Virus record (IMG/VR): IMGVR_UViG_3300027932_000003
Coordinates: 1 to 34,531 of that record
DNA length: 34,531 nucleotides
Direction: 5' to 3' (one strand)
Source: a virus
Made by a program: the position numbers and the translations under genes. Positions 1 through 34,531 of the stretch are shown here, one piece after another; the first letter of the stretch is position 1; each line of letters starts with the position of its first letter. A model generated the notes under the pieces. It made no database searches, was not told where the DNA came from, and worked only from the letters and a program-made list of their open reading frames with translations.

Positions 1-50
1 TGTAGTTTTTTTCATTTTCTGCGAAAATTTCACAACTAATGCAAAAAATT

Positions 51-410
51 GAAAATTCCAATTTCTTTCGTTTTTTTCGTTTTTTTCGCAAATTTCCCAA
101 CTTTCGCAATAAATTGGAAATTCCAATTAATTCTACACCTCCAAATAATAATTGGAGCGGTGCAAAAAATTCAAACTTCCAAAATTCCAATTAATCTGTC
201 ATTTTGCGTAAATTGTGCAAAAAATGAGAAAAATTGTAAATTCCTAATTTCCTAAATTTGAAATAATCTATCATTTTCTGCAAAAAAGTTAAAAAATTGG
301 AAATTCCTAAATTCCAAATAATTCTACATTTCCAAATAATTTTTCAACTATGATAAAAAATACTAATTTTCTAAATTCCTAAATTACAATTAATCTGTCA
401 TTTAGTGAAA
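51..410. repeat. Imperfect short tandem direct repeats inside the ITR (unit approx aaattcc(a/t)aatt, plus recurring aattaatctgtcatt)
   Basis: At least 8 copies of the aaattcc-aatt motif seen by eye between about 51 and 395; aattaatctgtcattt occurs at about 190 and 388; mirrored in the right ITR. Confidence 0.5.
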
Positions 411-1289
411 TTTGTAATATAAAATTTGCAAATTCAAACTTTGGAAATTTGTAATAAATGTTAATTTGTGGATATTAATAACTACTAACTATAATATTAT
501 AATTTATAATTTGGAGGGAACCAAACCCACAATTTAAAGTTTTTAGTTACTAAACATATTCATAATTTATTTAATTTCTTAATTCTAGCAAACCAAAACC
601 TCAATTTAAAGTTAGAAAGATACTAAACATATTGTTAATTTGTTATATTTATTCAAATCGTTATGTGTTGTTAGTTTTTTGCGTTTAGTGTTGGAGAAAT
701 TGGAAGTTTAGAAAGAAAAGTTTATATACCAGAAGAAAGCATTTAGTATTGTTAGTGGGCATTATCTTTCTTCTTATTATTATTTTTTTATATATATTAT
801 TATTAACATTTAAATTAGATAATTATATAATTATGAAGTTATATAATTATATAATTAGCTAACTACTAATTAGTAGTTTATAATATAATAATTATAGTTT
901 TGTAGTTCAAGTGTAAAATATAGTTTCTTTTTTTCTTTCAATTCAATAGAAGATTCTGTATACAGTTTGGATTTATATCAGTATTTTATGGTAAAAATTG
1001 TAAGGAGATTTAATAATTTAGAGAATATGGAAACTATCTAGTTATTCAATATAATAATTATATAGTTATGTAGTTAGTAGTTTATAATTAATAAATTATA
1101 GTCAAACCTAAAATAGGTTTTTTTAGGATTTTTCACCGTTAGGAAACAATTTATGTTTGGTGTTATGAGAGAAATTGGAGAGACAGAATTTACACGTTCT
1201 CTATAGAGAGAGGTGGCGATAAGAGTTAAGGAGATAGAGAATGTTTTATATTCGTCATATAATATATGATGATTTGTAGATGATAAAAA

Positions 1290-1478
1290 ATGACAAGAGT
1301 ACATAAATTAACTGCTGAGCAGAAAAAAATTTTAGAAAGAATGCATAATAGAATAGATTATATTATCAAAGCTTACAAGGAGTATTTGAATGCGTTAGCT
1401 GAATTTGATAGAACTGGTGTATTAAAAATTCATGGGAAAGTCATTTATGAAAGAAAATATAATGATCATCAAAAATAA
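1290..1478 (+). CDS. ITR-encoded hypothetical protein (62 aa), left copy
   Basis: ATG-initiated ORF with balanced helical-looking composition; upstream ttttatattcGTCATAt (1241..1260) about 40 nt before the ATG matches the genome-wide promoter pattern; identical copy in right ITR. Confidence 0.5.
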   Translation: MTRVHKLTAEQKKILERMHNRIDYIIKAYKEYLNALAEFDRTGVLKIHGKVIYERKYNDHQK

Positions 1479-1516
1479 CATAATTATAAGTCGAAAAATG
1501 AAGACATGAAAAGGTA

Positions 1517-1536
1517 GAGAAAGATTTAAATATGAG
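1517..1536 (+). promoter_or_regulatory. BRE/TATA promoter (gagaaagaTTTAAATAtgag) inside the ITR, driving 1567..1764
   Basis: Purine-rich stretch plus TTTAAATA box about 40 nt upstream of ATG 1567; same module recurs at about 1937..1954, 3241..3260 and 3968..3986. The mirrored copy (32996..33015) sits about 39 nt upstream of ATG 32966 on the minus strand. Confidence 0.5.
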
Positions 1537-1566
1537 TTTTTACATATATGATATTGTGAATAAAAG

Positions 1567-3194: not shown

Positions 3195-3293
3195 ATAAAT
3201 TTTCACTAAAAATATGGCGTAAGCTACAAAGATAAAAGTTTAGAGAAAACTTTAAATATAAGTTTAGACATATGTTATATTGAGGTAAGAAGA

Positions 3294-3461
3294 ATGAAAG
3301 AAGTAAAAGTTGGAAATTCGAGATATTATATAAGTTCAAGAGATGATGAGATAAGTGTAATACATGAGTTAGTTCAAAAAGGTTACTCCATAAGTCAAAT
3401 AGCTAGTTTGTTGAATATTTCAGAAAGAAAAATTAAAAAATACTTAGAAGATTGTTGGTAA
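3294..3461 (+). CDS. small helix-turn-helix DNA-binding protein (55 aa)
   Basis: Hand-translated: MKEVKVGNSRYYISSRDDEISVIHELVQKGYSISQIASLLNISERKIKKYLEDCW; GYSISQIASLLNISERKIKKYL is a typical HTH; TATA module at 3241..3260 and gaggt 8 nt upstream of the ATG; missed by the ORF track. Confidence 0.45.
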   Translation: MKEVKVGNSRYYISSRDDEISVIHELVQKGYSISQIASLLNISERKIKKYLEDCW

Positions 3462-7955: not shown

Positions 7956-8243
7956 TTACTTAGATTGAGGTTGTTGATTTTGTTCAGCTTTTTTCTGTGC
8001 TAATGCATTTACATCTCTTAATGTATCCATATTCAAGAGTGAATTAATTCCAAGGGTTGTAGTATCTTTAATTGATTCAACTGCTGAAATTGTAGATTTT
8101 GTCATCTGATCTACTGCAATTTGGAATGATTGATTTGCTTGCTTTTGATTGTAGAGATATACTACTTCTCCAACAACATAGCTAGCTATTAGAACTCCCA
8201 TCAGTACTAAAAATCCTTCTAAAGCTGTTTGGCTTAGTGTCAT
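7956..8243 (-). CDS. small membrane protein, N-terminal TM helix plus helical domain (95 aa); PVAP-like candidate
   Basis: One hydrophobic segment (ALEGFLVLMGVLIASYVVGEVVYLY) followed by about 65 polar, helix-prone residues; architecture resembles the roughly 98-aa rudivirus pyramid egress protein. Assignment is tentative. Confidence 0.5.
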   Translation of the reverse strand: MTLSQTALEGFLVLMGVLIASYVVGEVVYLYNQKQANQSFQIAVDQMTKSTISAVESIKDTTTLGINSLLNMDTLRDVNALAQKKAEQNQQPQSK

Positions 8244-10002: not shown

Positions 10003-10407
10003 ATGGCAAAAGGAAGAACACCAAGGTCCTATAGCCAAAGGTATGCAAAATGGTCAGCTAAATTTGCATCATTTTCAAATCCTACCGTAGCATCTACAAT
10101 TTTAAGTAATGTTTCGCCAGTTGCACAGCAAAATTTCCAAACTAATGTACCAAAGTTTACTAGTGTAAATGAACAAGTTTCTAGCGTATTGTCAGAATAT
10201 GGAATTACTGGCCCTAACAGGGCGATTTACCAAGGTTTCGGTCTTAAGGTAGCTAGAGCTTTAAATAGGTTGGGAGGAGGGCCAGCACTTGTTAACATGA
10301 TAAATGGACTAAAAGCATATTATATTTCAGCATTTAATGCTAATCCAACTGTTCTAGATGCAGTGACAAATATAATCACCGGTTCGCCAACTGGATATGT
10401 AAGCTAA
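10003..10407 (+). CDS. major capsid (coat) protein, rudivirus type (134 aa)
   Basis: Length and N-terminus (MAKGRTPRSYSQRYAKW...) match my recollection of the 134-aa SIRV coat protein; isolated monocistronic gene with a 235-bp upstream region and a long T-rich tail (10408..10518). Confidence 0.85.
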   Translation: MAKGRTPRSYSQRYAKWSAKFASFSNPTVASTILSNVSPVAQQNFQTNVPKFTSVNEQVSSVLSEYGITGPNRAIYQGFGLKVARALNRLGGGPALVNMINGLKAYYISAFNANPTVLDAVTNIITGSPTGYVS

Positions 10408-13088: not shown

Positions 13089-13175
13089 AAAACAAGAATA
13101 AATAAACTCAAAGCGAATTTGCTATATACATTATATTATGTATATTAGTTTGTTGTTTAATACGTAAAGCATGAG

Positions 13176-13198
13176 CGAAAGATTTATATATTTCGAAA
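13176..13198 (+). promoter_or_regulatory. Inverted-repeat-flanked TATA promoter (CGAAAgATTTATATAtTTCGaaa) for the zinc-finger gene 13223..13576
   Basis: CGAAA / TTTCG inverted repeat brackets the TATA box; identical 23-mer at 13656..13678. Confidence 0.5.
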
Positions 13199-13222
13199 AC
13201 GAATATTATCTTGGTGAAAAGA

Positions 13223-13576
13223 ATGAGAAGTCAAAAAACACAAAACAAAAGCCAAAACAAGTTACTTTTTTGTAAATTATGTTCTTTCGTAGCTACAAGT
13301 TATGAAGAATTAGATCATCATATAAAAATGAGTCATGAAGAATCAGATGATATTTCTGAAGAATTTCAAGTAATTTTTCTAAAGAAAAAAGACTATGAAG
13401 AGTATATGCGTAAAGAATATTTAAGAATTTGTAAAGGAGGAGGATGTATTATTAGACCACAAATTGATATTGAGAATGACAAAGATGAAATAAAACATTT
13501 ATACAAAGAATATTGTTCAACTTGTGAACTTAAGAAATATCTTCTAGCCGAATTAAAAGAAAACGGAAAAATGTGA
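13223..13576 (+). CDS. C2H2 zinc-finger protein (117 aa)
   Basis: ORF track starts at TTG 13211; first ATG is 13223, 37 nt from the TATA. CKLCSFVATSYEELDHHIKMSH = C-x2-C-x12-H-x4-H; additional C-x2-C (CSTC) near the C-terminus. Confidence 0.55.
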   Translation: MRSQKTQNKSQNKLLFCKLCSFVATSYEELDHHIKMSHEESDDISEEFQVIFLKKKDYEEYMRKEYLRICKGGGCIIRPQIDIENDKDEIKHLYKEYCSTCELKKYLLAELKENGKM

Positions 13577-13629: not shown

Positions 13630-13655
13630 ATTTCTAATTTTTAACAAACAGAAAA

Positions 13656-13678
13656 CGAAAGATTTATATATTTCGAAA
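13656..13678 (+). promoter_or_regulatory. Inverted-repeat-flanked TATA promoter, second copy, for the winged-helix gene 13704..13928
   Basis: Same 23-mer as 13176..13198; 38 nt from ATG 13704. Confidence 0.5.
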
Positions 13679-13703: not shown

Positions 13704-13928
13704 ATGAGGATAGGTAAAGAAGAAGAAAAAATTTTAGAATATCTTCAAAAAAATGGAGATTCAGAGTGGTTAGATAAATTGAAAAGTACTTTTTCTCATA
13801 CTGTTGGATATAAAATAATTGTAAATAAAAGAATAAAGAATCTAGAGAAAAAAGGTCTAGTAAAAATTGTTTGGGAAAAGAATCCACAGACTGGAAGAAA
13901 TAAAAAGAAAGTGTATTTAGTAACTTAA
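13704..13928 (+). CDS. winged-helix DNA-binding protein (74 aa), paralog of 4015..4251
   Basis: See 4015..4251; conserved NKR, KKGL, NPxTGR and VYL positions. Confidence 0.6.
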   Translation: MRIGKEEEKILEYLQKNGDSEWLDKLKSTFSHTVGYKIIVNKRIKNLEKKGLVKIVWEKNPQTGRNKKKVYLVT

Positions 13929-27838: not shown

Positions 27839-29035
27839 ATGGAATTTAAAAGAAAAAGTTCAGGCATAATAAAAAGTTTTAGCTCATTAGACATTTTTTC
27901 TATAAACCTACTTTACATGGGAATTTTAAGCGGTATAAGTTATCCTCTTTTTGTCTCAAGTCTTCTAAAATCTGTAAATTTACTATTTGCAATTTTGATA
28001 GGTGCAATTTTTGGAATTCCGTTACTTGCAATGTATTATTTACTGACTAAAAAAATTCCGCTTAATGGAGGAGATTATGCGTACATTAGATCTTCATTTT
28101 CTCCAAAATTCTATACAGTTTTTGGAATTTCGCTCTGGTTAATTTATGTATTTTCAGCACCAGTTTTATCAAACCTTGTATTGTTAAATTTCAATATTCC
28201 AATATTCGATAAGTTTTTAATTTCAGAACTATTACTTGGGACTGCGTTACTTAGTGTTAGCAAAAAAACAATTTATGCTTATATTGTTGACGCTATCGCA
28301 ATTTTACAAATAATCGTTTCGCTAATCTTGCCAATTTCAAGTTTCCATTTTCAAATTCAAAATTTTACAATATCCAATACTCTATTATCGGCATTATTAT
28401 TTGATTTATCTATGTTTTTATTTCTAAATGCAATTAGTTACATAGCAGGAGAAACAAAAAACATAAACAAAAATGCGAAAATCGGATATTTTGTAAGTTA
28501 TTTAGTAGTTACAATTTTAGCAGTATTGGACAGTTATTCAAATCTAAATATATTATTTCTACTAATGCCGATATGGTTTATGAGTTATATTTTTGTTACT
28601 TCTATGATTCAGAGTAGACTAGTTCAAAATTTAGCATTTGATAAAATCTTACCTGAAAAATTTGCAAAAATAACGCCTAATGCTTTACTGTTAATCTTTA
28701 TCGCTGATACAATTACAAACGTTTTAGAAAATCTTCTAAATTTTACAATTTCATTTGGTCTTGATGGCCTGTTATTTATTTTCTGGAACTTTATAATTGT
28801 TAGTTTTGCATTTCTGAAATTGACAAATAAAAAACTATTATTTTCAATAGTAATGATTAGTCTAATTTTACAGATCTTCTTATTCTTTTATTTAGGATTA
28901 CAAAATAGCGTATTTTATAATTTTGTAATTGAGGGAAACATACTATATACAATATTAAGAATATTGATAATGCCAATTGTTGGAGGAATTATTTACTTAT
29001 TGAGGAGAAAAGTGATAAATGTTGAATTAAAATGA
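27839..29035 (+). CDS. polytopic membrane protein, possible flippase/transporter (398 aa)
   Basis: At least 10 hydrophobic segments by eye; sits between a glycosyltransferase gene and 29032..29934, overlapping the latter by 4 nt. Confidence 0.6.
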   Translation: MEFKRKSSGIIKSFSSLDIFSINLLYMGILSGISYPLFVSSLLKSVNLLFAILIGAIFGIPLLAMYYLLTKKIPLNGGDYAYIRSSFSPKFYTVFGISLWLIYVFSAPVLSNLVLLNFNIPIFDKFLISELLLGTALLSVSKKTIYAYIVDAIAILQIIVSLILPISSFHFQIQNFTISNTLLSALLFDLSMFLFLNAISYIAGETKNINKNAKIGYFVSYLVVTILAVLDSYSNLNILFLLMPIWFMSYIFVTSMIQSRLVQNLAFDKILPEKFAKITPNALLLIFIADTITNVLENLLNFTISFGLDGLLFIFWNFIIVSFAFLKLTNKKLLFSIVMISLILQIFLFFYLGLQNSVFYNFVIEGNILYTILRILIMPIVGGIIYLLRRKVINVELK

Positions 29036-29934
29036 AATTGATTTTTGGATTAAGTTCAACATTATCATATATTTTAAAAACAAATTTTCCAATTTTAGTT
29101 AATCAACTAAGATTTAAAAGAAAAACATGGAAAAATGAAACATGGATTGATAGTGGCGGATATCAAATTATAATGCATAATCTAAAAATTTCTGTAAATG
29201 ATGTCTTGCAAAAGTATAAAAGTGTTAATGCTTACGCATTTTTTTCGCTTGATATTCCTAGCGTTTTTTCGCCAATTGATAAACGAAACTTTGAATATTT
29301 CGAATATCTATATACGAAAATTGAGTATATAGAAAAGATTATACCAGTTTTACATATTTATTCACTTCAAGATATAGATGAAGCAATTGATTTTTATAAA
29401 CAATACAGTTATTATTTTGCAATTGGTGGTATAATGACTTCTAGCAAAATGAAAGTTTTACAATATACATTTCCATGGGTTTATTATATAAAAAGAAAAG
29501 TTCCATATCTCCATATTTTAGGCATGTCATCTCCATATTTTTTACAAATTTTTAATAATATGCAAAGCATGGATACCGCAATTTGTTCAACAATTTCAAC
29601 ATTTAAAGAAATAATTTGGTTTGATAGTTCTAGGAGATATGTTGGAAATATGAAAACAAAAAGGGAAAGATATAAAATTACAAAAGAAGAAAAAGAACAA
29701 TTATTTGAATTTTTAGACAAACATAACTTTCAATTTAACTATGATTTAAGTAATAGAAATATTCTAGAACTTATAAATGCATATATGTTATTATATAATA
29801 ATTGGAAAATTAAGAATAAATATACAGAATATGCAGAAAAACTTAGAAAAATGGGACTAGATAGTTTGACAAGTGAGTTAATTAGAAATTATAAAATTGC
29901 AAATGAAATATTAAAACAGAAAAGAGAAAAATAG
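29032..29934 (+). CDS. hypothetical protein (300 aa)
   Basis: ATG ORF translationally coupled to the membrane protein gene. Confidence 0.55.
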   Translation: MKLIFGLSSTLSYILKTNFPILVNQLRFKRKTWKNETWIDSGGYQIIMHNLKISVNDVLQKYKSVNAYAFFSLDIPSVFSPIDKRNFEYFEYLYTKIEYIEKIIPVLHIYSLQDIDEAIDFYKQYSYYFAIGGIMTSSKMKVLQYTFPWVYYIKRKVPYLHILGMSSPYFLQIFNNMQSMDTAICSTISTFKEIIWFDSSRRYVGNMKTKRERYKITKEEKEQLFEFLDKHNFQFNYDLSNRNILELINAYMLLYNNWKIKNKYTEYAEKLRKMGLDSLTSELIRNYKIANEILKQKREK

Positions 29935-29948
29935 AAGATAAAAAAATA

Positions 29949-30503
29949 TTAACTTAACAATTTGTCTAATTCTTCATCATAAATTACTTCAACTTTTCCG
30001 TCTTTGACAATTATTTTGCCACTAAGATTTTCGCCGAAATAATGTAGTAACATTCCAAATCCTGTTGTTCTAGTTCTTCCGCTAATTTTGTATTCAATTT
30101 CTGCATTATTGTTACACCAAAGATGTTTCACATAGCCTAATGAGCCTGCAGGAGACATTAGTACGCTAGTTTGCTGACACTCACCAGAATTAATTTTTAC
30201 ACTTACATCTCCTCTAAATCCACTAGGAATTTCGATTAAGTATAATGTCGAATTTGGCTCATATTTTATCACTAAAGTTCCTTTTTCAGTTTGAATCATT
30301 TTGGCATTTGATAATTTTAATGCAATTGAACTAACTGACTCAAATTCTATAAAACTTCCATTCCCATCACTTTTAACAAACCTTCCGCTGATATAAATAA
30401 TTCTGCCTCTTTTTCTGGAACCAATACCAGTAAGATCTAATTGTTTATCTTCAAAATATGGATATTTTCCATCTTTTAAACTAACTGGAACTTTGTAACT
30501 CAC
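29949..30503 (-). CDS. hypothetical protein (184 aa), GTG start
   Basis: No in-frame ATG before residue 69; GTG at 30503 is preceded by gaggtaat; 10 nt after the upstream gene. Confidence 0.5.
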   Translation of the reverse strand: MSYKVPVSLKDGKYPYFEDKQLDLTGIGSRKRGRIIYISGRFVKSDGNGSFIEFESVSSIALKLSNAKMIQTEKGTLVIKYEPNSTLYLIEIPSGFRGDVSVKINSGECQQTSVLMSPAGSLGYVKHLWCNNNAEIEYKISGRTRTTGFGMLLHYFGENLSGKIIVKDGKVEVIYDEELDKLLS

Positions 30504-30513
30504 TTTTATTACC

Positions 30514-31236
30514 TCAATCTGTTTTATTTTTCCTTGGTCTTGGATGTGTAATTAAATAATATTTATTTCCGCTTAACATAACCGAATTTTCACCATGATC
30601 TGGAGATTTAATAACAAATACAGTAGCGTCTTGTGGATGTACTAAAAACGTAGAACCAGGTGTTGAAAATAAATCAGTAGCTAATACAGTATTTGAAAAT
30701 TGTATTTCATGATTATAAATTGTTAAACTACTTACATGATTGAGACTAAGATTTAATTCACCATTTGGCGGTGGAACTTCATAAATTTCTAGATTTCCTT
30801 GATTATATGTCAAATGAAATTCGTATAATTGACCTTTTATGAAATAATCATAAACTTCTATTGAATAATTGCTATAAGAAATTAATAATTCTTTTGAACT
30901 AAGATTTAAAAGTTCTAGTTCTTTTAATATAATGTTTTTCATATCTTCTAAACTTCTTGTAATTTTATTTCTTCTATAGACAGATATTATTGGCGATACT
31001 GGCGTATAATATATTCCTTTTACTTCATCCAATTGATCATCAATATTTCTAAAACATCCATTAAATGTCATACCGCTTCTTGAAACATATTTAGAACAAT
31101 TAATAAAATGATTAGATATTAACGAAATTTTGGTAACTTGACCATTTGTATGTTTCAACATAAAAACGATTGGCAAATATTTAATTTGTTTTAAAATTTT
31201 AACTTCATATTTTTTAACTTGATCTTCTTGAGACAT
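30514..31236 (-). CDS. hypothetical protein (about 240 aa)
   Basis: ORF track start 31248 is GTG; ATG 31236 is preceded by aggtga and by tttaaatttGTCATAtagc. Confidence 0.55.
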   Translation of the reverse strand: MSQEDQVKKYEVKILKQIKYLPIVFMLKHTNGQVTKISLISNHFINCSKYVSRSGMTFNGCFRNIDDQLDEVKGIYYTPVSPIISVYRRNKITRSLEDMKNIILKELELLNLSSKELLISYSNYSIEVYDYFIKGQLYEFHLTYNQGNLEIYEVPPPNGELNLSLNHVSSLTIYNHEIQFSNTVLATDLFSTPGSTFLVHPQDATVFVIKSPDHGENSVMLSGNKYYLITHPRPRKNKTD

Positions 31237-31322
31237 ACGATCTATCACCTGTAAAATATCATATGCTATATGACAAATTTAAAGCATTCGAAAAGTCTCG
31301 ATTTAGAAAAATATAAAAAAAA

Positions 31323-31607
31323 TTATTTTTCATAATATTCTATTGTAATTCTATCAATTGGAAAATCATATCCTGTTATCATCTCTAAAGTTTTCCTAGG
31401 CTCTCTGACTAGTAAGCAAAATAATTCATCAAAATTTTTAACTCCAAAATCTTCATAAATACTACTACTGAAATCTCTAACTTCTCTGTTAATTTCAGTC
31501 TCGATTAAACAATATTTTTGTTCATAATCTGTAATAAAATAACTTTCTTCTTCTGATAAAATAATTCTAAAACCATAGTTATATTTTTCAACTATTATAT
31601 CAACCAT
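31323..31607 (-). CDS. hypothetical protein (94 aa)
   Basis: ATG ORF with aggtgaagg upstream; second gene of a two-gene unit. Confidence 0.5.
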   Translation of the reverse strand: MVDIIVEKYNYGFRIILSEEESYFITDYEQKYCLIETEINREVRDFSSSIYEDFGVKNFDELFCLLVREPRKTLEMITGYDFPIDRITIEYYEK

Positions 31608-31623
31608 TTTTCCTTCACCTCAT

Positions 31624-31920
31624 TTAACAATTAATTGTCCAGTCTCTATTTCCATATTTTTCCTCAAACTCTTGGTATTTTCTTTGTTTTAATAATTTTA
31701 TAATTTTTTTAACTTCTTCTTCTGTAATTTTTAAACAATTCCTTCCATTATAATGGCTAATTGTAATTGTCGGAGTAACTTTGTCACGGTTTACTGTTTC
31801 AACTTGAACATAATATTCGCCATTTTTTTCAACAATATAATAATAATAATCTTCAAACTTAGTTTTTACTTTTTTAGAATAAATTATCTTCCTATCTTCT
31901 TGATTTGAACTTTCGGACAT
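31624..31920 (-). CDS. hypothetical protein (98 aa)
   Basis: ATG ORF; promoter tttttatatttGTCATAaaag then aggtga. Confidence 0.5.
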   Translation of the reverse strand: MSESSNQEDRKIIYSKKVKTKFEDYYYYIVEKNGEYYVQVETVNRDKVTPTITISHYNGRNCLKITEEEVKKIIKLLKQRKYQEFEEKYGNRDWTINC

Positions 31921-32009
31921 TTAACTCATCACCTGTAAATTAACATAACTTTTATGACAAATATAAAAATATCTTAAGCTTTCGATTTATAAAAAAGAAA
32001 AAAATAATA

Positions 32010-32474
32010 TTAATCTTTGATAAATTCGATTCTATAATTTTTCTTCAAAAGATAATATACTTTAAAATAGAAAGGATCAGCGTGACTGACAATAGATTCT
32101 GGTACCATCTTCAGTAAAGCAATGATATCTTCTGGAACATTATATTCATTAGAATAGTAAATGATTACTTTATTTTCTTTGCCTTCAAATCTATGCCAGA
32201 AATACGCTCTTTTGTAATATATGATATAATTATGAAACCCATTATTCCACTCATCATATGCTATATACTTTATATTATCATCATTAACAAAAATTACAGA
32301 ACTAATATATCGATCATTTACAACATTTCTTAATTTTTCAAATAGATATTCCTTAAGCTCCTTATAATTTGCTTTTTGTATTTCATTCCATAACTGAATA
32401 ATTTCATATCTCAAAATCTCTAATTGATTAATTATTTGATTTATTTTTTCTAATTGTTGATCAAATCTATTCAT
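32010..32474 (-). CDS. hypothetical protein (about 154 aa)
   Basis: ORF track start 32480 is GTG; ATG 32474 follows ttttaaatttGTCATAatac. Confidence 0.5.
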   Translation of the reverse strand: MNRFDQQLEKINQIINQLEILRYEIIQLWNEIQKANYKELKEYLFEKLRNVVNDRYISSVIFVNDDNIKYIAYDEWNNGFHNYIIYYKRAYFWHRFEGKENKVIIYYSNEYNVPEDIIALLKMVPESIVSHADPFYFKVYYLLKKNYRIEFIKD

Positions 32475-32651
32475 TTTCACTTCTCACCAAATCAATTCAC
32501 GTATTATGACAAATTTAAAAATGTCTTTACTTTTCGATTTGCAAACTTTCTAAAATATTAGTAATTTTATTTAAAGCCTGAGAAAAATTAAGCATGGAGA
32601 AAGAAAACAAAAAACAAAAAAATAAAAAATAAAGAATACGAAAGAAAAAAA

Positions 32652-32966
32652 TTAGTATATATTCCAAATCAATAAAGCAATTAACTTCAATATTTCTTCA
32701 CGCGTACCTTCAATTACTTTTTCATTATCAAAACTCTGACTGACCTTATACAATTGTGCAATCTTCTGCAAAATTTTAATAACGTCTAAATCTTGTGGAT
32801 TTAAGTACTGATAATAAACTTCATTTTCACCATGTTTTATCTTTATAACTAATTTGTTATACTCTATATGCTTACCTTGCACTTGTTCTAACTGAATTAA
32901 AAAATTAACATTAACTTGTTGTTCCAATACCTCTTTCATTTGACTTTGACTTTTTTCTTGACTCAT
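32652..32966 (-). CDS. hypothetical protein (about 104 aa), diverged paralog of 1567..1764
   Basis: Driven by the right-ITR copy of the promoter; ATG 32966 is 39 nt from the mirrored TATA (ATG 32978 is also possible); product shares KE(L/V), VYYQY / FYYSF and DxxIKI segments with the left-end 65-aa protein. Confidence 0.45.
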   Translation of the reverse strand: MSQEKSQSQMKEVLEQQVNVNFLIQLEQVQGKHIEYNKLVIKIKHGENEVYYQYLNPQDLDVIKILQKIAQLYKVSQSFDNEKVIEGTREEILKLIALLIWNIY

Positions 32967-32992
32967 CTTTTTCACCATTATCTATTATCTCT

Positions 32993-34531
32993 AAACTCAT
33001 ATTTAAATCTTTCTCTACCTTTTCATGTCTTCATTTTTCGACTTATAATTATGTTATTTTTGATGATCATTATATTTTCTTTCATAAATGACTTTCCCAT
33101 GAATTTTTAATACACCAGTTCTATCAAATTCAGCTAACGCATTCAAATACTCCTTGTAAGCTTTGATAATATAATCTATTCTATTATGCATTCTTTCTAA
33201 AATTTTTTTCTGCTCAGCAGTTAATTTATGTACTCTTGTCATTTTTTATCATCTACAAATCATCATATATTATATGACGAATATAAAACATTCTCTATCT
33301 CCTTAACTCTTATCGCCACCTCTCTCTATAGAGAACGTGTAAATTCTGTCTCTCCAATTTCTCTCATAACACCAAACATAAATTGTTTCCTAACGGTGAA
33401 AAATCCTAAAAAAACCTATTTTAGGTTTGACTATAATTTATTAATTATAAACTACTAACTACATAACTATATAATTATTATATTGAATAACTAGATAGTT
33501 TCCATATTCTCTAAATTATTAAATCTCCTTACAATTTTTACCATAAAATACTGATATAAATCCAAACTGTATACAGAATCTTCTATTGAATTGAAAGAAA
33601 AAAAGAAACTATATTTTACACTTGAACTACAAAACTATAATTATTATATTATAAACTACTAATTAGTAGTTAGCTAATTATATAATTATATAACTTCATA
33701 ATTATATAATTATCTAATTTAAATGTTAATAATAATATATATAAAAAAATAATAATAAGAAGAAAGATAATGCCCACTAACAATACTAAATGCTTTCTTC
33801 TGGTATATAAACTTTTCTTTCTAAACTTCCAATTTCTCCAACACTAAACGCAAAAAACTAACAACACATAACGATTTGAATAAATATAACAAATTAACAA
33901 TATGTTTAGTATCTTTCTAACTTTAAATTGAGGTTTTGGTTTGCTAGAATTAAGAAATTAAATAAATTATGAATATGTTTAGTAACTAAAAACTTTAAAT
34001 TGTGGGTTTGGTTCCCTCCAAATTATAAATTATAATATTATAGTTAGTAGTTATTAATATCCACAAATTAACATTTATTACAAATTTCCAAAGTTTGAAT
34101 TTGCAAATTTTATATTACAAATTTCACTAAATGACAGATTAATTGTAATTTAGGAATTTAGAAAATTAGTATTTTTTATCATAGTTGAAAAATTATTTGG
34201 AAATGTAGAATTATTTGGAATTTAGGAATTTCCAATTTTTTAACTTTTTTGCAGAAAATGATAGATTATTTCAAATTTAGGAAATTAGGAATTTACAATT
34301 TTTCTCATTTTTTGCACAATTTACGCAAAATGACAGATTAATTGGAATTTTGGAAGTTTGAATTTTTTGCACCGCTCCAATTATTATTTGGAGGTGTAGA
34401 ATTAATTGGAATTTCCAATTTATTGCGAAAGTTGGGAAATTTGCGAAAAAAACGAAAAAAACGAAAGAAATTGGAATTTTCAATTTTTTGCATTAGTTGT
34501 GAAATTTTCGCAGAAAATGAAAAAAACTACA
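32993..34531. repeat. Right inverted terminal repeat (ITR)
   Basis: Mirror copy of 1..1539; the window ends with the reverse complement of its first bases. Confidence 0.85.
33054..33242 (-). CDS. ITR-encoded hypothetical protein (62 aa), right copy
   Basis: Identical translation to 1290..1478; mirrored promoter. Confidence 0.5.
   Translation of the reverse strand: MTRVHKLTAEQKKILERMHNRIDYIIKAYKEYLNALAEFDRTGVLKIHGKVIYERKYNDHQK

What the first reader, a model, noticed from the sequence alone, without database searches (positions are those of the whole stretch)
29949..32966. Right-arm block of six leftward genes of unknown function with SD-coupled starts
Genes of 184, 240, 94, 98, 154 and 104 aa, all on the minus strand, several with aggtga/gaggt ribosome-binding motifs and TATA+GTC promoters. 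None has a recognisable motif. Terminal-arm genes of rudiviruses are variable, and this is where anti-CRISPR genes such as AcrIIIB1 have been found in SIRV2, so the block is a second candidate region for undescribed anti-defence functions.
Basis: inference. Interest (0 to 1): 0.5.

Follow-up and report, generated by a model that had tools for sequence, protein, structure and literature searches.

The report
Rudivirus right-arm anti-defence gene cluster
The six leftward genes are real and form the early accessory (anti-defence) cluster of a Yellowstone-type Sulfolobus rod-shaped virus: one is a clear relative of the known anti-CRISPR AcrIIIB1, four belong to gene families already predicted in 2024 to be anti-defence genes, and only one small gene is uncatalogued, so the block is mostly a new example of a known kind.

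Summary
Observation confirmed: six minus-strand genes (184, 240, 94, 98, 154, 104 aa) with GGTGA-type ribosome-binding sites. All are under purifying selection (dN/dS 0.14-0.28).

The window is a complete Usarudivirus genome with a perfect 1539-bp inverted terminal repeat. "None has a recognisable motif" is wrong:
- The 240-aa protein is a full-length homologue of SIRV2 gp48 (AcrIIIB1/AcrIA4; 40% identity, E 2e-50).
- The 104-aa protein belongs to the SSV1 A100 family (PDB 4LID; ADG.01).
- The 184-, 154- and 94-aa proteins match ADG.06, ADG.18 and ADG.22 of Bhoobalan-Chitty et al. 2024.
- Only the 98-aa gene is uncatalogued. It is absent from 50,697 phage records but conserved in metagenomic relatives, always between the 154- and 94-aa genes.

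The block has four transcription units:
- Three use a conserved promoter module (AAATCGA box, 13-14 nt, then TATA-TTGTCATA).
- The fourth uses the SIRV2/Aca8-type anti-defence promoter, which lies inside the terminal repeat.

AlphaFold models of the 184- and 94-aa proteins are confident (pLDDT 94.5) but match nothing solved. Anti-defence function is inferred for everything except, by homology, the AcrIIIB1 relative.

Verdict: new member of a known kind, moderate interest.

The parts
29949..30503 (-). o184, 184 aa, ADG.06 family. Second gene of a bicistron with the AcrIIIB1 homologue (10-nt gap, GAGGT ribosome-binding site, GTG start). Soluble, all-beta.
30514..31236 (-). o244/240 aa, homologue of AcrIIIB1 (SIRV2 gp48, also called AcrIA4). 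The ATG at 31236 is the likely start; the GTG at 31248 lies too close to the promoter.
   Evidence: 40% identity over residues 11-240 vs 2-249 of SIRV2 gp48, E 2e-50; tblastn hits 33 records: all Usarudiviruses, SIRV1/2, SIFV, AFV7; SIRV9 orthologue labelled AcrIIIB1 in PMC11065993.
31269..31304 (-). Class B promoter of the o244-o184 bicistron: AAATCGA box (31298-31304), 14 nt, then TTTAAATTTGTCATA (31269-31283).
31306..31322 (-). T-rich tract (TTTTTTTTATATTTTTC) directly after the o94 stop codon; likely archaeal terminator of the o98-o94 unit.
   Evidence: Read from the sequence; function inferred.
31323..31607 (-). o94, 94 aa, ADG.22 family. Second gene of a bicistron with o98 (16-nt gap, GAGGTGA). 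Very acidic (pI 4.4, net charge -10.5).
31624..31920 (-). o98, 98 aa, uncatalogued family; first gene of the o98-o94 bicistron.
   Evidence: No tblastn match in 50,697 phage records; 13 metagenomic clusters at 61-100% identity; the exact protein occurs on 17 contigs from independent samples, always in the order 154-98-94-244 aa; dN/dS 0.20-0.23; not the pyramid protein P98, whose homologue is at 7956-8243.
31953..31988 (-). Class B promoter of the o98-o94 bicistron (AAATCGA 31982-31988; TTTATATTTGTCATA 31953-31967). Its upstream half is 55/60 identical to the upstream half of the SIRV9 AcrIIIB1 promoter.
31989..32009 (-). T-rich tract (TATTATTTTTTTCTTTTTTAT) after the o156 stop codon; likely terminator.
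   Evidence: Read from the sequence; function inferred.
32010..32474 (-). o156/154 aa, ADG.18 family, monocistronic. N-terminal long helix region followed by a conserved C-terminal domain.
   Evidence: 82% identical to SIRV9 gp53, which is listed as ADG.18; a second subfamily at 37-38% identity occurs in SIRV4/5/6/11 and in the SIRV9 left arm; no PDB sequence match.
32505..32540 (-). Class B promoter of o156 (AAATCGA 32534-32540; TTTAAATTTGTCATA 32505-32519).
32652..32966 (-). o108/104 aa, ADG.01 family, equivalent to the SSV1 A100 family; monocistronic.
   Evidence: 76% identical to SIRV10; also found in 20+ fuselloviruses and in SYV1; SIRV9 gp54 is listed as ADG.01; profile hits PDB 4LID 'A-100' at E 0.018 over the full length; pairwise vs SSV1 A100: 28% identity, E 4e-4; the fusellovirus homologues are the first gene of the early T6 operon.
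33000..33016 (-). Class A (SIRV2/Aca8-type) promoter of o108: AGAGAAAGATTTAAATA. It lies inside the terminal repeat, 8 nt from its inner edge.
   Evidence: Exact match; 12 sites at <=2 mismatches against 0.77 expected; near-identical to the SIRV2 gp05 and gp52 promoters; terminal-repeat edge at 32993.
33054..33242 (-). Adjacent gene, outside the finding: o62, 62 aa, ADG.17 family (viral Phd-like antitoxin). Duplicated in the left terminal repeat at 1290-1478 (+).
   Evidence: 88% identical to SIRV9 gp03, which is listed as ADG.17/vAT; family function tested for SMV1 gp44 in PMC11065993; duplication.
3294..3461 (+). Aca8 homologue (55 aa, wHTH), the presumed repressor of class A promoters. Located in the left arm.
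   Evidence: 55% identical to SIRV2 Aca8 and to SIRV4 gp51, E ~1e-19; preceded by a class A site at 3242-3258. Role taken from PMC11065993; not tested here.
32993..34531 (.). Right inverted terminal repeat: a perfect reverse complement of 1-1539.

Best explanation
The block is the right-arm early accessory (anti-defence) gene cluster of a complete Usarudivirus genome of the Yellowstone SIRV4-11 clade. It has four transcription units, each with a strong archaeal BRE/TATA promoter and each ending at a T-rich tract or a convergent gene: (1) o156 (ADG.18); (2) o98-o94 (uncatalogued family plus ADG.22); (3) o244-o184 (AcrIIIB1 homologue plus ADG.06); (4) o108 (ADG.01, the SSV1 A100 family).

Units 1-3 share a ~36-bp module: an AAATCGA box, 13-14 nt, then TTTWAATTTGTCATA. 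Unit 4 uses the SIRV2-type anti-defence promoter that also precedes the Aca8 repressor gene.

Proposed mechanism (inferred). On entry these promoters fire first. The AcrIIIB1 homologue binds the host Cmr (type III-B) effector complexes, blunts Csx1-dependent immunity and contributes to inhibition of type I-A, as shown for SIRV2 gp48. The small, soluble, fast-evolving partner proteins neutralise other host defence or takeover targets by protein-protein or nucleic-acid binding. o184 is translationally coupled to the AcrIIIB1 homologue; o94 is very acidic.

Shown here: gene reality, homologies, operon and promoter architecture, and distribution. Inferred: timing of expression and every biochemical activity.
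For: Genome identity: the major capsid protein is 99% identical to SIRV8/9/10, and the terminal repeat is a perfect 1539 bp.

o244 matches SIRV2 gp48 over its full length (40% identity, E 2e-50). gp48 inhibits III-B by binding Cmr-alpha and Cmr-gamma (PMC10681719) and also inhibits I-A (bioRxiv 10.1101/2024.04.02.587611).

o184, o156, o108 and o94 are 63-87% identical to proteins listed as ADG.06, ADG.18, ADG.01 and ADG.22 in Supplementary Data 1 of PMC11065993.

Promoters: the class B box occurs 3 times, only in this block, against 0.24 expected. The same box precedes at least six unrelated terminal gene families in SIRV4/8/9, V3 and metagenomic relatives, but not core-gene TATA-GTCATA promoters. 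The class A site upstream of o108 is an exact match and is near-identical to SIRV2 anti-defence promoters.

Horizontal spread: o108 homologues are the first gene of the fusellovirus early T6 operon. In unrelated 34-40 kb elements, o184 and o94 homologues sit side by side, and in the 40-kb contig (L015) a distant AcrIIIB1 homologue and an AcrIII-1/DUF1874 gene lie within 4 kb of them.

No match to structural or housekeeping families, no transmembrane segments, and confident models with no known fold relatives, as is common for anti-defence proteins.
Against: No experiment or transcriptome exists for this virus. Only the AcrIIIB1 family has tested members, and those are at 40% identity.

The ADG labels in the literature are predictions from promoter motifs. 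Several Usarudivirus orthologues sit in that paper's 'low-probability' sheet: the AcrIIIB1 genes of SIRV8 and SIRV9, ADG.06 of SIRV4-7 and SIRV11, and ADG.18 of SIRV6, SIRV8 and SIRV11.

o108's relatives are a soft-core fusellovirus gene described as a Pur-alpha-like putative transcription factor (PMC9608457), which fits a regulatory role as well as an anti-defence one. The same supplement queries 'host cell cycle regulation?' for members of ADG.06, ADG.17 and ADG.18.

The published link of ADG.22 to an AcrIIIB1 fusion protein was not recovered by a profile search of 1.84 billion proteins.
Confidence: 0.72

Rival explanations
1. Early host-takeover or regulatory genes rather than inhibitors of immunity. 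Most of the non-AcrIIIB1 genes would reprogram host transcription, the cell cycle or viral early gene expression. For example, o108 would act as a PUR-like nucleic-acid-binding regulator, and o156/o184 as cell-cycle modulators.
For: The o108 family equals SSV1 A100, a soft-core gene in fuselloviruses annotated 'Pur-alpha repeat' among putative transcription factors, and always the first gene of the early T6 operon. The authors of the ADG catalogue themselves note 'host cell cycle regulation?' for ADG.06, ADG.17 and ADG.18 members. SIRV2 gp47 (AcrIA3), which sits in the position next to gp48, is a DNA-binding repressor.
Against: The patchy, horizontally exchanged distribution across unrelated viruses, and the clustering with AcrIIIB1, AcrIII-1 and a viral antitoxin, are more typical of counter-defence genes. 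No DNA-binding motif was detected in o184, o94, o98 or o156. A regulator of host defence genes, like AcrIA3, would still count as anti-defence.
Confidence: 0.2
2. Structural or core replication/morphogenesis genes of the virion that are simply too divergent to recognise.
For: Rudiviral minor virion proteins are poorly annotated. o184 is a beta-sandwich, a fold class common in capsid and fibre proteins.
Against: o94 and o98 are absent from nearly all isolates; o184 is absent from SIRV8 and V65; o156 comes in two 38%-identical variants. The core rudiviral genes (capsid, minor structural proteins, glycosyltransferases, resolvase) lie elsewhere in the window. o184 is shared at 71% nucleotide identity with a non-rudiviral element.
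Confidence: 0.04
3. Some of the ORFs, especially the small o98 and o94, are chance reading frames in AT-rich DNA.
For: The genome has 25% G+C, so long stop-free frames need checking. o98 has no match in isolate genomes.
Against: dN/dS is 0.20-0.27 with dS ~0.5-0.6. There are 13 and 11 conserved protein clusters, with many invariant residues. Synteny is conserved on 17+ contigs from independent samples. A GGTGA ribosome-binding site sits at the right distance. The AF2 model of o94 is confident.
Confidence: 0.01

Closest known systems
AcrIIIB1 / AcrIA4 (SIRV2 gp48, ORF249)
   Same: o244 aligns end to end with gp48 (40% identity, E 2e-50). It is the same size, sits in the same right-arm position and orientation, is preceded by its own strong promoter and is followed by a small partner gene.
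   Different: At 60% sequence divergence, activity on the Yellowstone host's Cmr or I-A systems is untested. Its downstream partner is the unrelated 184-aa beta protein (ADG.06), not the wHTH AcrIA3 (gp47), which has no homologue in the window. Its promoter is the class B module rather than the SIRV2 consensus.
Predicted anti-defence gene (ADG) clusters at rudivirus termini (Bhoobalan-Chitty et al. 2024, PMC11065993)
   Same: Single small genes or short operons at the genome ends behind conserved BRE/TATA regulatory sequences, together with Aca8. Four of the six genes fall in their families ADG.01.06.18 and .22.
   Different: This genome is not in their set. o98 has no counterpart in any of the viruses they analysed. 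Three of the four promoters here are of a second type (AAATCGA box), and orthologous genes with that type were partly relegated to their low-probability list.
SSV1 A100 (PDB 4LID), first gene of the fusellovirus early T6 operon
   Same: o108 has the same length and is detectably similar (profile E 0.018; pairwise E 4e-4). It has intermediates at 38-48% identity in SSV Lassen B104 and SSV-RH A102a. It sits directly behind a strong early promoter.
   Different: It is monocistronic here rather than heading a 7-10-gene operon. The function of A100 itself is unknown. The fold of o108 was not modelled here.
AcrID1 family (SIRV2 gp03 and paralogues)
   Same: Small proteins of about 100 aa in rudiviral arms.
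   Different: Profile-profile comparison finds no relationship for o94, o98 or o108 (probabilities <1%). No AcrID1 homologue was found anywhere in the window.

Membership tests
AcrIIIB1 (o244) | Full-length sequence homology to SIRV2 gp48 | tested here: met
   40% identity, residues 11-240 vs 2-249, E 2e-50. The hit set is the one reported for the family: rudiviruses plus SIFV and AFV7 (PMC10681719).
AcrIIIB1 (o244) | Binds Cmr-alpha/Cmr-gamma effector complexes and inhibits type III-B (and I-A) interference | not testable with these tools
   Known only for SIRV2 gp48.
Archaeal-virus ADG as defined in PMC11065993 | Predicted strong promoter (purine-rich BRE plus TTTAWATA TATA box) upstream | tested here: met
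   Exact AGAGAAAGATTTAAATA upstream of o108. TTTWAATTTGTCATA with an A/G-rich upstream stretch before o244, o98 and o156. o184 and o94 are second genes of bicistrons and have no promoter of their own.
Archaeal-virus ADG as defined in PMC11065993 | Regulatory sequence around the promoter shared with other genes of the same genome | tested here: met
   Class B module: 3 sites against 0.24 expected. Class A: 12 sites against 0.77 expected, concentrated in the two arms.
Archaeal-virus ADG as defined in PMC11065993 | Immediate-early transcription, later repressed (by Aca8) | not testable with these tools
   An Aca8 homologue is present at 3294-3461. No transcriptome is available. Whether Aca8 acts on class B promoters is unknown.
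ADG.06 (o184), ADG.18 (o156), ADG.22 (o94) | Sequence similarity to the listed family members | tested here: met
   o184 is 87% identical to SIRV4 gp48; o156 is 82% identical to SIRV9 gp53; o94 is 77% identical to V3 34359-34643.
ADG.22 (o94) | Domain also found fused to AcrIIIB1 in a 535-aa MAG protein (claim in PMC11065993) | tested here: not met
   A profile search of 1.84 billion representatives gave 23 hits. All are 73-261 aa, and none carries an AcrIIIB1 domain. The paper's own table gives 7.8% identity for that member.
SSV1 A100 / ADG.01 (o108) | Sequence homology to A100 and its fusellovirus homologues | tested here: met
   tblastn E 8e-23 to SSV Lassen B104. Profile vs 4LID E 0.018 over the full length. 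Pairwise E 4e-4.
SSV1 A100 / ADG.01 (o108) | PUR-alpha-repeat-like fold of 4LID | not tested
AcrID1 family | Profile similarity to SIRV1/SIRV2 AcrID1 paralogues | tested here: not met
   hhalign probabilities of 0.1-0.3% for o108, o94 and o98.
Virus-associated pyramid protein P98 (for o98, which has the same length) | Homology to SIRV2 gp49 and a transmembrane segment | tested here: not met
   The P98 homologue is at 7956-8243 (64% identity). o98 has no hydrophobic segment (maximum KD19 -0.08).

The most novel reading that the evidence does not exclude
Usarudiviruses would run a second early regulon, distinct from the Aca8/SIRV2-type one and defined by the AAATCGA-N13/14-TATA-TTGTCATA module. 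This regulon would drive two-protein anti-defence modules: AcrIIIB1 with the novel beta-sandwich o184, and the uncatalogued o98 with the acidic o94. The identical promoter cores would also serve as recombination sites through which such cassettes are swapped between viruses. The o98-o94 insertion is bounded by two promoter copies, and its breakpoints relative to SIRV9 fall at the 15-bp core. o98/o94 and o184 would then be new inhibitors of a Sulfolobus defence system.
Probability: 0.25. Interest if true: 0.6.

Novelty: new member of a known kind. Interest (0 to 1): 0.35.

Why it matters
Archaeal anti-defence proteins are few: four Acr families and one antitoxin had been characterised up to 2024. 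This block gives a compact, well-delimited test set from an uncultured Yellowstone rudivirus. The set comprises a divergent AcrIIIB1, its conserved translationally coupled partner with a confidently predicted but unmatched fold, an uncatalogued two-gene cassette, and a promoter module that may mark anti-defence genes missed by the published motif search. [quoted passage not shown] As it stands, the block is largely a new instance of an already described arrangement.

Tried and rejected
- Pfam, NCBIfam and PADLOC scans of all six proteins gave nothing above threshold. Weak hits of o98 to DUF6438, phrog_5744 and AbiH recur in some family members but stay below the cut-offs, and those families are themselves of unknown function.
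- PDB sequence and profile searches found nothing for o184, o244, o94, o98 or o156.
- I tested whether o98, o94 or o108 are AcrID1-like or related to one another. They are not.
- I tested whether o98 is the P98 pyramid protein. It is not.
- I tested the published ADG.22-AcrIIIB1 fusion link and did not recover it.
- I looked for paralogues of the six genes inside the window and found none.
- Rfam found no RNA family in 29500-34531.
Full report
**What the window is.** The window has 25% G+C. Its major capsid protein (10003-10407) is 99% identical to those of SIRV8/9/10 and 87-90% identical to those of SIRV1/2. The first 1539 bases are a perfect reverse complement of the last 1539. It is therefore a complete linear genome of a Usarudivirus from the Yellowstone SIRV4-11 clade. 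No deposited phage record reaches 90% nucleotide identity over the block; the best is SIRV9, at 80% over 81% of it. The exact proteins recur on contigs from several independent metagenomes.

**The observation.** All six minus-strand ORFs are present at the stated coordinates. All six evolve under purifying selection: dN/dS is 0.14-0.28 with dS 0.34-2.3 against three orthologues each. None has a hydrophobic segment, so they are soluble proteins.

**Identities.**
- *The 240-aa protein* aligns end to end with SIRV2 gp48 (ORF249) at 40% identity, E 2e-50. Its tblastn hits cover all Usarudiviruses, SIRV1/2, SIFV and AFV7.
  - gp48 is AcrIIIB1. It binds the Cmr-alpha and Cmr-gamma complexes and blocks type III-B immunity against middle and late genes (PMC10681719).
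  - gp48 has since also been shown to inhibit type I-A, together with the adjacent gp47/AcrIA3 (bioRxiv 10.1101/2024.04.02.587611).
- *The 104-aa protein* has homologues in every Usarudivirus, in more than 20 fuselloviruses and in SYV1.
  - A profile of the family hits the crystallised SSV1 protein A-100 (PDB 4LID) over its full length at E 0.018. The pairwise comparison gives 28% identity, E 4e-4.
  - In SSV1, SSV-RH and SSV Lassen the homologue is the first gene behind the early T6 promoter.
  - A review lists A100 as a soft-core fusellovirus gene with a Pur-alpha-repeat fold and unknown function (PMC9608457).
- *Published catalogue.* Supplementary Data 1 of Bhoobalan-Chitty et al. 2024 (PMC11065993) lists the SIRV9/SIRV4/V3 orthologues of five of the six genes:

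| Gene here | Catalogue entry |
|---|---|
| 184 aa | ADG.06 |
| 240 aa | AcrIIIB1 |
| 154 aa | ADG.18 |
| 104 aa | ADG.01 |
| 94 aa | ADG.22 |

  The 62-aa gene just outside the block (33054-33242, duplicated at 1290-1478) is ADG.17. This is the Phd-like viral antitoxin family, whose member SMV1 gp44 was shown to neutralise a host Doc toxin.
- *The 98-aa gene* has no match in any of 50,697 phage records, so it is in no catalogue.
  - It nevertheless has 13 conserved clusters in metagenomes.
  - It always sits between the 154-aa and 94-aa genes.
  - It is not the pyramid protein P98, whose homologue lies at 7956-8243.

**Architecture.** Gaps of 10 and 16 nt, each with a ribosome-binding site and no promoter, join o244-o184 and o98-o94 into bicistrons. 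o156 and o108 stand alone.

Three promoters share a module: AAATCGA, 13-14 nt, then TTTWAATTTGTCATA. The boxed form occurs three times in the window, only here, against 0.24 expected. TATA-GTCATA alone is genome-wide: 29 sites against 8.2 expected. From memory, the GTC element was described for SIRV1/2 promoters by Kessler et al. 2004; I did not verify this here.

The same boxed module precedes unrelated terminal genes in SIRV4, SIRV8, SIRV9, V3 and metagenomic relatives. These genes are AcrIIIB1, both ADG.18 subfamilies, the viral antitoxin, SIRV4 gp45, an ADG.01-like gene and others. Core-gene TATA-GTCATA promoters lack the box.

The o108 promoter is different. AGAGAAAGATTTAAATA is an exact instance of the SIRV2-type anti-defence promoter, which has 12 sites against 0.77 expected and is near-identical to the SIRV2 gp05 and gp52 promoters. 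That promoter type also precedes the Aca8 homologue at 3294-3461. It lies inside the terminal repeat, 8 nt from its inner edge, so the same promoter drives o108 on the right and a different 65-aa ORF (1567-1764) on the left.

In the published catalogue, several Usarudivirus orthologues appear only in the low-probability sheet: the AcrIIIB1 genes of SIRV8 and SIRV9, most ADG.06 entries and several ADG.18 entries. Among those I examined, SIRV9 AcrIIIB1 has a class B promoter and SIRV4 ADG.06 is an internal operon gene. This suggests that the class B module was only partly captured by that method.

**Variation.** SIRV8/9 go directly from ADG.18 to AcrIIIB1. This genome has the o98-o94 cassette in between, and metagenomic relatives add a tandem o94 paralogue (40-45% identity).

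Relative to SIRV9, the upstream half of the o98 promoter is 55/60 identical to the upstream half of the SIRV9 AcrIIIB1 promoter, and the 15-bp core is identical. The o244 promoter matches SIRV9 only downstream of the core (44/60, against 30/60 upstream). The insertion or deletion is therefore bounded by two copies of the promoter core, which suggests cassette exchange by recombination at these repeats. This is an inference.

**Guilt by association outside rudiviruses.** ADG.06 homologues occur on 34-50 kb contigs with about 29-30% G+C. In the one tested (L015), the backbone matches no deposited virus except through this gene itself, at 71% nucleotide identity. In two of these contigs (L014, L015) the ADG.06 gene is adjacent to an o94 homologue (53% identity). 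In L015 a distant AcrIIIB1 homologue (25% identity, E 8e-9) and an AcrIII-1/DUF1874 gene lie within 4 kb.

**Structures.** AlphaFold2 gave confident models for two proteins:
- o184: 55-sequence alignment, pLDDT 94.5, all-beta.
- o94: 30 sequences, pLDDT 94.5, a five-strand meander plus helices.

The published grouping of ADG.22 with an AcrIIIB1 fusion protein was not reproduced. A profile search of 1.84 billion proteins found 23 small proteins and no fusion.

**Interpretation.** The best-supported reading is an early accessory, counter-defence cluster:
- an AcrIIIB1 orthologue with a conserved coupled partner;
- three families already predicted to be anti-defence genes;
- one uncatalogued family.

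These are expressed from two classes of strong promoter. What is shown: gene reality, homologies, operon and promoter layout, distribution and synteny. What is inferred: early timing, regulation by Aca8 (class A) or by an unknown factor (class B), and all molecular activities.

The main rival is that several of these genes, notably the A100-like o108, are regulators or host-takeover factors rather than immune inhibitors. Structural, housekeeping and non-coding readings are effectively excluded.

**Verdict.** This is a new member of a known kind. The modestly novel details are the o98 family, the class B promoter module, the promoter-bounded cassette, and the unmatched folds of o184 and o94.

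Noticed in passing
window 1-1539 and 32993-34531: Perfect 1539-bp inverted terminal repeat, so the window is a complete linear genome. The repeat ends 8 nt after a class A TATA box, so one promoter sequence drives two different genes: o108 on the right and a 65-aa ORF at 1567-1764 on the left.
   Followed up: partly
window 1290-1478 (+) and 33054-33242 (-): A 62-aa gene carried in both terminal repeats is 88% identical to SIRV9 gp03. It belongs to family ADG.17, the Phd-like viral antitoxin shown (for SMV1 gp44) to neutralise a host Doc toxin. Its promoter is a hybrid of the class A upstream part and the class B TATA-CGTCATA core.
   Followed up: partly
window 3294-3461 (+): Aca8 homologue (55 aa, 55% identical to SIRV2 Aca8) behind a class A promoter at 3242-3258.
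   Followed up: partly
whole window: At E<=0.01 there is no homologue of AcrID1 (SIRV2 gp03, gp45, gp46), AcrIA3 (gp47) or AcrIII-1/DUF1874 (gp37). The AcrIIIB1 homologue and the antitoxin are the only relatives of characterised anti-defence proteins.
   Followed up: partly
window 7956-8243 (-): Homologue of the pyramid-forming egress protein P98 (64% identical to SIRV2 gp49). It lies in the left half of the genome, not next to the AcrIIIB1 gene as in SIRV2.
   Followed up: no
window 13174-13190 and 13654-13670 (+): Two class A-like promoter sites lie in the genome interior, upstream of ORFs 13211-13576 and 13704-13928. SIRV9 gp33 at the equivalent position is listed as ADG.04, so there may be an internal anti-defence candidate.
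   Followed up: no
L011 2951-3262; L009 3510-3821; L010 1244-1555; L012 1404-1715: Metagenomic relatives carry a tandem 103-aa paralogue of o94 (40-45% identity) between o94 and the AcrIIIB1 gene. It is missing in this window. In L011, o98 follows o156 with a 17-nt gap and no promoter of its own, so the whole set is one operon there.
   Followed up: partly
L014 and L015 (contigs of 34.5 and 40.2 kb); L013 (49.8 kb): Non-rudiviral elements (G+C ~0.29-0.30; Rad51-like, RNA-ligase-like and CCA-adding-enzyme-like genes). L014 and L015 carry ADG.06 next to an ADG.22 homologue. L015 also has a distant AcrIIIB1 homologue and an AcrIII-1 gene nearby. L013 carries only the ADG.06 homologue. The identity of the elements is unknown.
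   Followed up: partly
window 27839-29934 (+): Amino-acid-permease-like and tRNA-ribosyltransferase-like genes lie immediately left of the block. In SIRV1/2 the same pair sits in the left arm, so the arms are rearranged between Icerudivirus and Usarudivirus.
   Followed up: no
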